Below, in pieces: positions 1 through 4,211 of a stretch of 64,000 bases of DNA. Position 1 is the stretch's first letter. The number at the start of each line of letters is the position of its first letter. The translations under genes and the position numbers were made by a program. The notes under the pieces are model-generated. The model ran no database searches. It was given only the letters and a program-made list of their open reading frames with translations, and was not told the DNA's origin. The stretch is taken from the NCBI RefSeq assembly GCF_009914755.1, contig NC_060930.1; one strand, written 5' to 3'. This DNA comes from the human T2T-CHM13v2.0 reference genome, Homo sapiens.

Positions 1-480
1 GTTTGATGGTTTTCTGGTGGAGAATCAAACAGTTTACTGGAGAATGCTGACTGTCACATAGGGGAATATGTGTTCAATGCTAATGCGTTAATATTTTCAG
101 AAGTTGTGCATTGCTTGCCACATAAGCTAAAAAAACAAAATTTGTTAAATGAATGTGACAATTTGATATTTATAGACATGATAAGCTCTTACATCATTAG
201 GGAATATTACAAATATGTCAAGAATACATACATGTACATAAGCTATACACTGCATGCAGAACGTTAGGATGATTTTTGCCTTAAATTGTCAGTATTTGAT
301 ATTGTTCAACAGGACTTGGCTGATCTGTTCTTCTATTTTTCTTCCTTTTGACTCTCTTTCTCTTTTGATTTGTTTGGGTATTTTTGTTTGACCTTTCTTC
401 TTTCCCTATCATTTTCTTTGCTGTGTACAGCCTTAAGTTCCAGAAAGAGATACTACGAAAACCATCTGGGCTGTTCTTAC

Positions 481-511
481 CTAGACATCGTGGAAATCAG
501 GCAGCAGGGAT
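481..511 (-). other. Candidate 31-nt micro-exon (one arm of an inverted duplication)
   Basis: Minus strand reads tctatctttcag|atccctgctgcctgatttccacgATGtctag|gtaaga: pyrimidine tract plus AG, strong donor, ATG with A at -3. No transcript evidence available. Confidence 0.4.
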
Positions 512-549
512 CTGAAAGATAGAACATTGACCCAAGAGAGACAAAATCT

Positions 550-1710
550 GAAGTTCTTATTTCTCATACTGTATTTTTTATCTCTTTGGATTATTTTTGA
601 TAGTTTCCATGTCTCTGCTGAAATTATCACTTTATACAGGTTGTTTACCTTTTTCACATTAGTGTTTCATCATAGTTAATTTAAAGTTCATGTTTGGTAA
701 TCTCAAAATTCATGCCTTTTCTTATTCAGCTACCATTATTCCCTTTCTTAACTCTTGGTGACTTTTTATTGTTTTCCTTTGTGTATGTTTTTGTTCTTAA
801 TTGTTTGCTGAACATTTTTATGAAAACATAATAGAAACTGAAGTAATTGATACCTATCTCCAGAAAAAACATGCCCCTTCTGTCAGTTTGCTAGAGTAGG
901 GGCTGGGTCAATATACTTGGTGGTTGAGGTCTGGGATTTGTTAGAATGCCAGTTTAACTTAGTTCAACATTGTAGTCAAATATCTTGAGGATAGGTTTGA
1001 CCTAGGATTTAAGCCTCATTGAGGTTATGAAGAGCTGCCTGTGGTCCACAGAAGAGCCACTTCCTTTCTAAACTGTGGGTGATCCCTTTCTACATCGCCA
1101 CTTGCTGCCACCATTTTGGATATCTGGGGGGATTTCTTTGCTGCCTAGTACTGTCTGCTGTGTTGAGGGTGATCTCTTTTAGCTCTTCTGAGCCATCCTC
1201 AGCCTTGGACCTCAGCTGTAGTTGCCCTACCATCTGTGAGGCTGGTATTGCCAGGAAAGGGGTATTTCTCATCAACCTCCTTAGCTGAAAGCACAAAGTA
1301 CCTCAAAAGCTTTCTCTCAGCTCTCTTTCCCTGTGCCTATATTGGGTGTGCTGATATTAGCACTCATTAAATATTTGAGACTGCCCAGGAGTCATCTGGG
1401 TTCAAATCTGCCATGTCAGCCCACATATGGCCACTAAAAGTTTAAGTGTTACACTCCTTTCTCCTGAGTCCTGTCCATGGAAACTTTATTCCCACTCCCC
1501 TCCACTTTAGGCAGCAATGAGAGAAGCCTAGAATTTTTTCCACTCTTGTAAAGGCTTTGCCACTTTCTAGAGTTTTAGTTCTTTTATGTTTGTGTGAGTC
1601 CTATTCTGGTAAAGTTTTACAACTATGTTGATGTAACCTATTTGGCTTGTTTTAATTGTAAAGATGAAAGCAACAGTCTTTTGAGATATCAACATCTGAA
1701 ACAGAAGAAT
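550..1710 (-). mobile_element. Ancient L1 (L1M/L1ME-type) 5'/ORF1-region fragment
   Basis: T-rich antisense L1M-like motifs (gtttccatgtctctgctgaaatt, ctagagtaggggctgggtcaat); highly diverged, boundaries approximate. Confidence 0.5.
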
Positions 1711-1734
1711 GTGTAATGATTTTTAAGTCTTTAT

Positions 1735-1805
1735 AGCAACCTCCAGCACCTAATATGCAATGTTATAAAATAGGCACTCAATAAATGTTTGCTGAATAAA
1801 TATGG
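1735..1805 (+). mobile_element. L2 3' end fragment
   Basis: taggcactcaataaatgtttgctgaataaa is a typical L2 3' terminus. Confidence 0.6.
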
Positions 1806-2334
1806 ATAAGAAAGCAAATTTCTCTTTTGCACCAGAGTGCAGTAGAACTAGGAGCAAGGGGTGAAATTATTGAGAAGTAAATTTGGATGAATATAAAAAT
1901 GTATTGCATAAGAATTACGGCTGTCAAAAAGTTGAGCAGCCTTACTTCAGACTTAATAAATCACAAATTATTGAAAGAGCTTAACTAAAGATTTTAGGGA
2001 ATAAATTAGAGTTCTATGAACCACATGAATGCTTCTTGTTAGATGATTAAATCTTTGTAACTCAGTGATTCTATATTATTGGGGTAAAAGCAAGATTTGT
2101 ATTTGTAAACCACATAAAATGGGCCAAATATTTTCACATACTACTCATATGCACAAAGAAAACGTAGCTTCTAAGTGTCTTCAATGTCATTTTCTTTACC
2201 CGCTTCCATGCCGTAGGGCCACTGGGACAAAAACAAATGATAAATTTTGTGAACTTGCCCAGTGCATAGTATCTTAATTTATGGGGAATTGATGAGTCTC
2301 TTGAATGATTTTGTCTCGTGTCTCGATCTTTCAG

Positions 2335-2367
2335 ATTCCCCCTGCCTATCTTCTCCACGATGTCTAG
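2335..2367 (+). other. Candidate 33-nt micro-exon (other arm of the inverted duplication)
   Basis: tctcgatctttcag|attccccctgcctatcttctccacgATGtctag|gtgaga; AG at 2333-2334, GT at 2368-2369, ATG at 2360. Confidence 0.35.
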
Positions 2368-4211
2368 GTGAGAACAGTCAGGATGGTCCTTTTAGTATCT
2401 CTCTCTGGTTCATTGTCTGATGAGGTTCCTGGATCTTACCTGTAGATCCAAGTCCTATCTAGCATTTTGGGCATTTTTTGGTAGGAACTGGACACCACTA
2501 TTCTACCACCAGCCTTAGGTAATGAAGTTCCCTGTACTGTGACCTCTTTGTCTATACTCACAACCTTCTTCCGATCTATCAGCCTTTTTGACCTTCCTCT
2601 AGACACTGGGCAGATCCTGGCAAGCCAGATAACCCAGAGACTCATCCTCAAGCTAGTCTATTCCACCCATCCTTTATTTATTTGTTTGTTTTTGAAGTGG
2701 CTTCTGGCTGGGCTTGACATACAGCCTTTGCAATGTATCTCATTACTGATCCCTCCCCCAGTTTGAAAGCAAGGACCACATGTCCTATCCATCAGTCCAC
2801 AAACTCCATGTGCAGCTTTCTCCTTTCTCCATGTCCCAGCTTTTTCCTTGGGAGGAGGAATGGCCTTCTGTTATGTGGGAAATTACTTTGATGCAATGGT
2901 TGCCTCTAAGTATACAACCAGGCAAATTATACCCAAGTCATGGAGCGGAAAGTCTCATAGACTCAAAGTGAATGAGCCAATCACATGAGTTACTTAATTT
3001 AGAACACAAAATGAGGAGCATAGGAAAAGAAACAGAGTAACTCGCACTAGCTGAATTCTAGGTTATCATGCAATATTCAGGAATTCTATTTCTTTCTCTG
3101 TGGCATAAGCTTTCCATAATAATGGTGCAATTATGAGGATTGGAGTTGAGGTTTTATGTGGGAGTCCAGCAGATGGAATGTGCCTGGGACCAACACAAAT
3201 ACTCAAATACTCATTCTATCAGAGAGACCCAGGGGTAGGTACAGCTGGCCATATCTCAGAGCTGTAGTTTATCCATGACTGTTGAGTGGCCACAGATTTT
3301 TATTTGAGTGTCTCACGAAAAGAATATTTAGAGTAAGAATCTCTACCACCAATGGGTTTCTGATACAAGACTTCACGCATATTAAGTGATCCATAAGCCT
3401 CGTATATTTGATGCATCATGAATATTTAGTTTTCACTTCGTACTTCCATCCCTTTCTATCTTTGTTAGCACATCTATATTACAATTATTTTATGTTTGTT
3501 TGACATAGCAAGGATATATGATTAAGAAAAAATGTAAATGTCTGCTCAGTATTTTTAAAACATTATCTCAATCATACAGGTAAATGATTAATATTCTATC
3601 ATTTTATGTTTTCAGAAACAAAGAAATGATTGACTTATTCAATTGATAATTATGAGTCTGTTCTGTGTCATACACTATAGTGGATATGTGAAATGCAACT
3701 ATGAACTAGACTGTTTCTTAACTCTTGTTTTATGACCTTTAAGCAGTACTGGTACTAACACAGATATTCCATAGTTACAAATGATGCACTGAATTGAATT
3801 GATACCTTAAACTTTGCTAAATATTACAATATACTTTTAAACAGAAATCAGACATAGTTTTGGTTCTTGAGGGGCTTACAAAATAGCTAATGTATAAAAA
3901 AGGCAGATTCTTTTATTCAGCCATTCTGAAAAATATAATCAGGAATTGCATTTATGATGAGTTGTAAGAAAGCACTCATTTGAATTCTGAATGACTTCTT
4001 GGGTTACACTGTATTGGAGAGGTATGGATCTGGGATATCCACGTCAAGAAGAAAATTCTTAGATTTTTTTTTAACAGGCAAAATATTATCATAATATCCA
4101 TAATATTGAAGCATTCACCTTCCAACAAACAAGTTATTCCTCTTTAACTGTTTAATTTTTGCAAATTTTGGAGATAAAGTGGTGCCTAAGAAGTCAATTA
4201 ATTTATCTGCA

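What the first reader, a model, noticed from the sequence alone, without database searches (positions are those of the whole stretch)
440..2408. Inverted duplication of a micro-exon cassette with splice sites and ATG kept in both arms
Seen: the reverse complement of 440-548 aligns with 2307-2408 over about 105 bp. Shared blocks are gattttgtctc, atctttcaga, ctgcct, tccacgatgtctaggtRagaacag, gatggt and tagtatctctYtctgg, separated by substitutions and indels. The best-kept blocks are the acceptor (tctttcag), the CCACGATG start context including its CpG, and the donor (TAG|GTRAGA). I do not recognise it as a known repeat. Inference: either (a) relics of head-to-head duplicated first coding exons (ATG TCT AG|), or (b) one real exon plus a cis-antisense copy 1.8 kb away. 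In case (b) the copy could pair across both splice sites in pre-mRNA and act as a splicing mask or an ADAR editing-complementary sequence.
Basis: partly seen in the sequence, partly recalled or inferred. Interest (0 to 1): 0.8.

Follow-up and report, generated by a model that had tools for sequence, protein, structure and literature searches.

The report
Old inverted copy inserted into L1
A 105-base stretch was copied long ago, in reverse orientation, into a decayed L1 element 1.8 kb away; it looks like a neutral scar of DNA repair or replication, not a pair of exons.

Summary
The inverted repeat is real. The reverse complement of 440-548 aligns with 2307-2408: 83 of 100 aligned bases are identical, with 11 gap columns (E 3e-15 in the window, 6e-11 in the genome). 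It is a private pair. Two whole-genome DNA searches and two mismatch-tolerant motif searches of the T2T genome found only these two copies plus chance-level hits.

Arm A (440-548) is a clean insertion into an old L1 relic (ORF1 region, minus strand):
- A profile of 30 other L1 copies matches window 291-450 (profile 163-326) and 550-728 (profile 324-524). The profile coordinates abut, and the extra ~100 bases are arm A.
- 29 of 29 other copies cross that site without such an insert.

Arm B lies in sequence with no other genomic match. The best reading is a templated inverted insertion copied from B to A. The arms (K2P 0.195) are much younger than the L1 host (0.27-0.33 to its consensus).

The splice-like and ATG motifs are present because they were copied. 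They are not kept better than the rest of the arms (Fisher p 0.28; run test p 0.17). No gene is annotated here. Transcription, editing and cross-species conservation could not be tested. Ordinary, low interest.

The parts
440..548 (-). Arm A: the inserted, inverted copy (109 bases) that interrupts the L1 relic
   Evidence: Aligns to 2307-2408. It falls exactly in the gap between the two L1 profile hits. No L1 locus covers 450-509, and coverage is near zero (mean 0.3 of 30) in 510-539. It is absent from 29 of 29 other L1 copies at that site.
2307..2408 (+). Arm B: the presumed template (102 bases), lying in sequence with no other genomic match
   Evidence: Left flank 1810-2306 matches only itself in the genome. 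In the right flank 2409-3400, all 13 non-self matches fall in window 2857-3027. There is no sign that arm B interrupts anything.
291..439 (-). L1 relic (ORF1 region, antisense on the + strand), the piece left of the insertion
   Evidence: 30-copy profile positions 163-326 match window 291-450, E 2.7e-8. The 5-copy profile gives 108-253 against 292-437, E 1.7e-6. Window 271-439 scores 16.5 bits against a maximum of 0.2 in 300 dinucleotide shuffles. Identity to the family consensus is 73%, K2P 0.33.
549..995 (-). L1 relic, the piece right of the insertion
   Evidence: Profile positions 324-524 match window 550-728, E 7e-22. A pairwise match to one copy runs to 995. Up to 24 of 30 family loci cover 570-660. 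K2P to the consensus is 0.27.
435..443 (.). Outer junction (L1 to arm A)
   Evidence: Read from the sequence and the profile alignment. CC(A) at 440-442 could come from either the L1 consensus or the template, giving a possible 2-3 base microhomology. AAGTT at 435-439 recurs at 551-555.
546..556 (.). Inner junction (arm A to L1)
   Evidence: ATC at 546-548 is shared by the template end and the L1 consensus at the abutting profile position. AAGTT at 551-555 is a possible short direct repeat of 435-439. The two readings (microhomology, or a 5-7 base target duplication) cannot be separated here.

Best explanation
Arm A (440-548) is a fossil templated insertion. About 105 bases of nearby unique DNA (arm B, 2307-2408) were copied in reverse-complement orientation into an already old, decayed L1 ORF1 relic 1.8 kb away, and the template was left in place.

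The most likely mechanism is a DNA-level template switch: either a stalled or broken replication fork (FoSTeS/MMBIR type) or microhomology-primed repair synthesis at a double-strand break. The nascent end copies a short nearby stretch from the opposite strand and then returns to the original site.

The splice-like motifs and the ATG were carried along with the copied stretch. The pair has since drifted neutrally and has no demonstrated function.

Shown: the arms are a private pair. Arm A is an insertion in the L1. The L1 is otherwise continuous. The arms are younger than the L1 host.

Inferred: the direction B to A, the switch mechanism, and neutrality.
For: (1) Insertion. Two independently built profiles of the L1 family place abutting profile coordinates on either side of arm A. 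The 5-copy profile gives hmm 108-253 against window 292-437 and hmm 271-447 against 557-709. The 30-copy profile gives hmm 163-326 against 291-450 and hmm 324-524 against 550-728. So few or no L1 positions appear to be missing, and about 100 extra bases lie between the hits. The boundaries found from L1 (about 438-556) coincide with those found from arm-to-arm homology (440-548).

(2) The weaker left L1 piece is not a composition artefact: 16.5 bits against a maximum of 0.2 in 300 dinucleotide shuffles.

(3) 29 of 29 other family copies cross the site in one alignment, with subject and query spans within about 30 bases of each other. The family had 549 first-look candidates, of which 40 were scored. 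No arm-like sequence was found in 48 other loci totalling 143,903 bases.

(4) The host is L1 ORF1. An open frame in one family copy, on the strand opposite to the window's + strand, hits Pfam PF02994 (L1 RBD-like domain) at E 5.4e-6, 27.1 bits against a cut-off of 22.4. This was 1 of 6 frames tested.

(5) The pair is private, and arm B lies in sequence with no other genomic match.

(6) Timing. K2P between the arms is 0.195, about 0.10 per arm. The L1 pieces are 0.27-0.33 from the family consensus. The insertion therefore came long after the L1 landed.

(7) Published passages describe this signature, an insertion in inverted orientation near its template and flanked by microhomology (PMC8421209, passages read), and describe template switches as generators of inverted repeats in great-ape genomes (PMC7954356, passages read).
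Against: - The direction B to A rests on parsimony only. No outgroup genome could be consulted, so arm B could itself be an insertion, or both arms could be copies of a lost third source.
- Junction microhomology (CCA, ATC) is inferred from a family consensus and not from the ancestral sequence. An alternative reading is a 5-7 base imperfect direct repeat (AAGTT at 435-439 and 551-555), which would need about 12 L1 bases to have been lost and would hint at a staggered-cut insertion.
- The published short-range events are mostly tens of bases with templates within about 100 bases, a limit partly set by the tools used. This event is 105 bases from 1.8 kb away.
- The exon-like cassette pattern is rare by chance: 0.15 expected per window for the strict pattern, 3 seen, of which 2 are the arms. 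A real unannotated exon at arm B is therefore not excluded.
- Neutrality is inferred from two sequences only, and gene conversion between the arms could distort the dating.
- The genome search tool scores only its best candidates and skips very common words, so very diverged extra copies could be missed.
Confidence: 0.7

Rival explanations
1. Both arms are independent insertions of one short, about 105-base sequence. This would be a very low-copy mobile element, or a captured fragment from a third source that is now lost or unrecognisable.
For: Arm A is certainly an insertion. A possible 5-7 base direct repeat flanks it (AAGTT at 435-439 and 551-555, read). The homology of the two arms ends at the same points on both sides.
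Against: No third copy is in the genome by two DNA searches and two motif searches. The unit has no terminal inverted repeats and no poly(A) tail (read). No flanking duplication is visible around arm B. The two copies lie only 1.8 kb apart, which a local copying event explains and random insertion does not.
Confidence: 0.12
2. The same insertion arose through an RNA intermediate. A double-strand break in the L1 was patched with reverse-transcribed unspliced local transcript covering arm B.
For: The insert is short, has a single local source, and the template is retained. All of this fits capture of a cDNA as well as it fits a DNA template switch. No call separates the two.
Against: No gene is annotated in the window (hub note). 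The insert carries both 'intron' flanks and so is not from spliced RNA. It has no poly(A). A nearby, inverted template is the hallmark described for DNA-level switches (PMC8421209 passages).
Confidence: 0.08
3. Arm B is a real, unannotated micro-exon, and arm A, co-transcribed, pairs with it over about 100 bases to mask its splice sites or to recruit ADAR.
For: Good acceptor and donor consensus are present in both arms. The strict cassette pattern is expected 0.15 times per window. The predicted inter-arm duplex is -128 kcal/mol against about -50 for shuffled partners. A CpG inside the ATG context survives in both arms (alignment).
Against: No gene is annotated in the window (hub note). The motif columns are not better conserved than the rest (p 0.28, 0.17 and 0.09). 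The middle of the 'exon' carries substitutions and a 2-base indel. The coding part would be 8 bases. There is no Rfam match at the arms. Any inverted repeat folds well.
Confidence: 0.04
4. The arms are the terminal inverted repeats of one about 2 kb DNA transposon spanning 440-2408. A variant is the reader's option (a): relics of head-to-head duplicated first exons.
For: Inverted arms of about 105 bases bracket 1.76 kb.
Against: The L1 relic continues directly on both sides of arm A (291-439 and 549-995). Only arm A interrupts it, not a 2 kb element. No other copy of the arms exists. No target duplication is seen at 439/2409. The interior holds unrelated old repeats. No paralogous exon is found elsewhere in the genome.
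Confidence: 0.02

Closest known systems
MMBIR/FoSTeS-type templated insertions (MMB-TI; Osia et al. 2021, PMC8421209, passages read)
   Same: The insertion is an inverted copy of a nearby template that stays in place. The recipient sequence appears intact or nearly so around it. Short junctional microhomology is possible.
   Different: This one is 105 bases copied from 1.8 kb away, ancient and fixed. The published detector looks for templates within 100 bases and inserts up to read length. Microhomology here is only inferred from a repeat consensus.
Short-range template-switch mutations in great-ape genomes (Walker, Loytynoja and Goldman 2021, PMC7954356, passages read)
   Same: A replication template switch that creates a new inverted repeat in the descendant sequence.
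   Different: Those events span tens to hundreds of nucleotides around the mutation cluster and are found by comparing close species. This one is longer-range, older, and seen in one genome only.
DNA transposon or MITE with terminal inverted repeats
   Same: Two inverted arms of about 100 bases lie about 2 kb apart.
   Different: No other copies, no target duplication at the outer ends, and the host L1 resumes directly inside arm A, so the arms are not the ends of one element.
Inverted Alu pairs as dsRNA or ADAR substrates and splice modulators (recalled, not taken from a call)
   Same: An intramolecular duplex of about 100 base pairs is predicted if both arms are transcribed together.
   Different: This is a private single pair in an unannotated gene desert, with no evidence of transcription or editing available here.
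LINE-1 (ORF1 region) relic: the host of arm A, not the arms themselves
   Same: Window 291-439 and 549-995 match a family with at least 549 first-look candidates. One copy of that family carries a Pfam PF02994 match.
   Different: The arms themselves do not match this family. The subfamily could not be named because no Dfam library is available.

Membership tests
   Each arm finds only itself and its partner genome-wide. The 24-mer and 27-mer motifs with up to 3 mismatches find only the arms plus chance-level hits.
DNA transposon with terminal inverted repeats | The arms are the two ends of one inserted element, so host sequence resumes only outside both arms, with a target duplication | tested here: not met
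   The L1 profile resumes at 549/550, directly inside arm A. No duplication is seen at 439/2409.
Templated inverted insertion (template-switch class) | The stretch is an insertion relative to the ancestral recipient sequence | tested here: met
   Profile coordinates abut on both sides of arm A. 29 of 29 other copies are uninterrupted there. The shuffle control supports the left piece.
Templated inverted insertion (template-switch class) | A retained template nearby, in reverse-complement orientation | tested here: met
   Arm B lies 1.8 kb away on the opposite strand, with 83 of 100 aligned bases identical. It is the only other copy in the genome.
Templated inverted insertion (template-switch class) | Microhomology at both junctions | tested here: inconclusive
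   CCA and ATC are shared between the template ends and the L1 consensus at the abutting positions. However, the ancestral site is unknown, and a 5-7 base direct repeat is an alternative reading.
Templated inverted insertion (template-switch class) | Empty site in lineages that branched off before the event | not testable with these tools
Exon (micro-exon cassette) | Consensus acceptor and donor around a short segment | tested here: met
   TTTCAG, then 31 or 33 bases, then AG|GTRAG in both arms. 0.15 such patterns are expected per window by chance.
Exon (micro-exon cassette) | Splice and start motifs conserved above their surroundings | tested here: not met
   40 of 50 against 43 of 61 matching columns, Fisher p 0.28. 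Longest run P 0.17. Best 24-column window P 0.09.
Exon (micro-exon cassette) | Use in a transcript (annotation or spliced reads) | not testable with these tools
   The hub note says no gene is annotated in the window. No RNA-seq data are available here.
dsRNA or ADAR editing-complementary pair | Long, stable duplex between the arms | tested here: met
   Cofold gives -128.3 (+ strand) and -128.8 (- strand) kcal/mol, against means of -49.4 and -53.5 for 100 shuffled partners each. This follows trivially from the repeat.
dsRNA or ADAR editing-complementary pair | Both arms in one transcript, with A-to-I sites | not testable with these tools
   No expression or editing data are held.
LINE-1 ORF1 relic (host of arm A) | Homology to L1 ORF1 protein domains, and membership of a high-copy family | tested here: met
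   PF02994 is hit at E 5.4e-6, above the cut-off, in 1 of 6 frames from family copies. The family has 549 first-look candidates. The window pieces match the family profile. The window's own copy was not translated against Pfam.

The most novel reading that the evidence does not exclude
Arm B is an unannotated micro-exon or regulated pseudo-exon of a gene-desert transcript. The templated inverted copy 1.8 kb upstream created, in one mutational step, a roughly 100 base-pair intramolecular duplex across both of its splice sites. That would be a born-by-repair splicing mask or ADAR substrate, retained in primates.
Probability: 0.03. Interest if true: 0.55.

Novelty: new member of a known kind. Interest (0 to 1): 0.15.

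Why it matters
This is mainly a clean-up result. A striking 'exon pair' turns out to be a copied stretch and its template.

It has modest value as a well-resolved fossil of a longer-range (1.8 kb, 105 base) inverted templated insertion. The pre-insertion state could be inferred here because the recipient happened to be a high-copy L1. Current detectors of such events look within about 100 bases of the insertion (PMC8421209), so fixed events of this size and range are probably under-catalogued.

The same trick could be applied genome-wide to date and count such events: use interrupted old repeats as a stand-in for the ancestral sequence.

Tried and rejected
1. Chance similarity: rejected (E 3e-15; E 6e-11).
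2. Known RNA family: the Rfam scan of 1-4000 at E up to 1 gave only a sub-threshold PART1_3 match at 2783-2922, away from the arms.
3. Dispersed repeat: rejected at the sensitivity available.
4. A first MAFFT alignment of the window with 5 L1 copies forced arm A against about 85 L1 bases and suggested a replacement patch. The profile searches showed that this was an alignment artefact and that arm A is a plain insertion.
5. With low-complexity filtering, pairwise BLAST lost the left L1 piece in the 5-copy set and kept it in only 3 of 30 loci. The profile and the shuffle control were needed to establish it.
6. A sequence-only covariance model of the two arms could not be run on the genome because the tool refuses models for this genome. 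I used a second motif search and a local nhmmer search of the fetched loci instead.
8. Transposon with terminal repeats, and head-to-head first exons: rejected because the L1 is continuous across arm A.
9. L1 reverse-transcriptase template switching at the time of L1 insertion: set aside. The arms (about 0.10 per arm) are much less diverged than the L1 (0.27-0.33), and no other L1 copy carries the insert.
10. No cross-species comparison, RNA-seq, editing catalogue or Dfam library was available.
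Full report
**Observation.** The window sequence contains the inverted repeat as described.
- Ungapped extension gives arms 440-494/2354-2408 (55 nt, 84%) and 499-523/2323-2347 (25 nt, 84%).
- Gapped blastn joins them into 440-548 against 2408-2307: 74.8% over 111 columns, E 3.4e-15. There is no other comparable match in the 64 kb window.
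- A global alignment has 83 identical, 17 mismatched (10 transitions, 7 transversions) and 11 gap columns, K2P 0.195.

**Copy number.** The whole T2T genome that holds the window was searched four ways.
- Arm A (430-560) and arm B (2290-2420, E up to 10) each returned only themselves and the other arm (79% identity, E 6.1e-11). Each search had 2 first-look candidates and both were scored.
- The best-kept 24-mer with up to 3 mismatches returned the two arms and one three-mismatch hit on another chromosome. The reversed-pattern control returned 2.
- A 27-mer from the outer part of the arms returned the two arms and two three-mismatch hits. The control returned 2.
- A profile of the two arms found nothing else in the window below E 0.5. 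In 48 other fetched loci (143,903 bases) it found only an E 0.053 hit, in a locus that had been picked by the motif search itself.
- Rfam has nothing at the arms.

**Context, the decisive part.** The interior 549-2306 is not one unit. Window 560-709 hits 5 other loci of a dispersed repeat, and 1730-1802 hits 6 loci of another.
- I fetched the five copies and then 29 more, found with one copy as the query. That search had 549 first-look candidates, 40 scored, and 39 non-self matches.
- A first multiple alignment misled me into seeing arm A as a replacement of about 85 repeat bases.
- Profiles settled it. A 5-copy profile matches window 292-437 with positions 108-253 (E 1.7e-6) and window 557-709 with positions 271-447 (E 6.7e-18).
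- A 30-copy profile matches window 291-450 with positions 163-326 (E 2.7e-8) and window 550-728 with positions 324-524 (E 7e-22).
- The profile coordinates abut, so the repeat appears intact or nearly so, and the window carries about 100 extra bases between the two hits. Those bases are arm A.
- The weaker, T-rich left piece scores 16.5 bits without arm A, against a maximum of 0.2 in 300 dinucleotide shuffles.
- All 29 of 29 other copies cross the site in one alignment, with no length excess beyond about 30 bases.
- Pairwise coverage by the 30 loci is zero over 450-509, near zero (mean 0.3) over 510-539, and reaches 24 of 30 just to the right.

The boundaries defined by the interrupted repeat and those defined by arm-to-arm homology agree to within a few bases.

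**Identity of the host repeat.** One of six open frames taken from family copies, on the strand opposite to the window's plus strand, matches Pfam PF02994 (the L1 RBD-like domain of ORF1). The match is E 5.4e-6, 27.1 bits against a cut-off of 22.4. The other five frames gave nothing relevant. So arm A lies in a decayed L1 ORF1 region on the minus strand. I could not name the subfamily.

**Arm B.** Its left flank 1810-2306 matches nothing else in the genome. In its right flank, all 13 non-self matches fall at window 2857-3027. Arm B thus lies in about 1 kb of sequence with no other genomic match, and nothing suggests that it interrupts anything. By parsimony it is the template and arm A is the copy. 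Without an outgroup genome this direction is inferred, not shown.

**Timing.** The arms differ by K2P 0.195, about 0.10 per arm. The two L1 pieces are 0.33 and 0.27 from the family consensus, and the 30 copies are a median 81% identical to it. The copy was therefore made long after the L1 landed. This also argues against a chimera formed during L1 retrotransposition. With recalled neutral rates of about 1-2.2e-9 per site per year, the event would be some 45-100 million years old. This is an inference, it is sensitive to gene conversion between the arms, and the consensus is imperfect.

**Junctions.** Set against the family consensus, the L1 seems to be split at one point.
- CC(A) at 440-442 and ATC at 546-548 could each derive from either the L1 or the template ends. 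That gives possible 2-3 base microhomologies.
- Alternatively, AAGTT at 435-439 and 551-555 is a short direct repeat. That reading needs about 12 L1 bases to have been lost.
- I cannot decide between these two readings.
- The inserted unit has no poly(A) tail and no terminal inverted repeats of its own.

**Mechanism.** An inverted copy of a nearby, retained template has been inserted with little or no apparent loss of recipient sequence. That is the signature described for microhomology-mediated template switching at broken or stalled forks (PMC8421209, passages read). Template switching is also reported as a source of new inverted repeats in great-ape genomes (PMC7954356, passages read). Other titles in the search listing were seen only as listings. 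This event is larger and longer-range than the catalogued short-range ones. A cDNA-capture variant cannot be excluded.

**The exon reading.**
- The motifs are real, and the strict pattern is rare by chance: 0.15 expected per window and 3 found, of which 2 are the arms and so represent one event.
- Once arm A is seen as a copy, 'kept in both arms' needs no selection.
- Cassette columns match in 40 of 50 cases against 43 of 61 elsewhere (Fisher p 0.28).
- The longest identical run (16) and the best 24-column window (23 of 24) are reached in 17% and 9% of column permutations.
- The hub's annotation lists no gene in the window.
- The predicted inter-arm RNA duplex is strong, about -128 kcal/mol against about -50 for shuffled partners. 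That follows from the repeat itself and says nothing about transcription.
- Splicing, editing and cross-species conservation remain untested.

**Verdict.** It is best explained as a neutral fossil of a templated inverted insertion into an L1 relic. This is a known kind of mutation and of low interest. A small residual chance remains that arm B is an unannotated exon.

Noticed in passing
window 1730-1802 (+): The tail of an old dispersed repeat. 6 of the 11 non-self genome matches of the interior query fall here, at 80-97% identity over 33-73 bases. By recall it resembles a MIR-type SINE tail; this was not tested.
   Followed up: no
window 2857-3027: Another dispersed repeat. All 13 non-self genome matches of 2409-3400 fall here, at 71-92% identity. 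The only Rfam match, sub-threshold (PART1_3, 19.9 bits against 40, E 0.31, at 2783-2922 on the minus strand), overlaps it. That match probably reflects repeat content in that lncRNA model.
   Followed up: no
L013, about 484 to 198 bases before the window start: A younger repeat about 290 bases long, 87% identical to a stretch in L017. Up to 18 of the 30 L1-bearing loci also contain it. It is Alu-like by recall.
   Followed up: no
window 35675-35727 (+): The only other match in the window to the strict exon-like pattern TTTCAG, then 20-50 bases, then AGGTRAG.
   Followed up: no
window 46716-46814: Weak similarity (66.7% over 99 columns, E 5e-4) to window 602-688, the L1 relic next to arm A. It is probably another old L1 fragment of the same region.
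   Followed up: no
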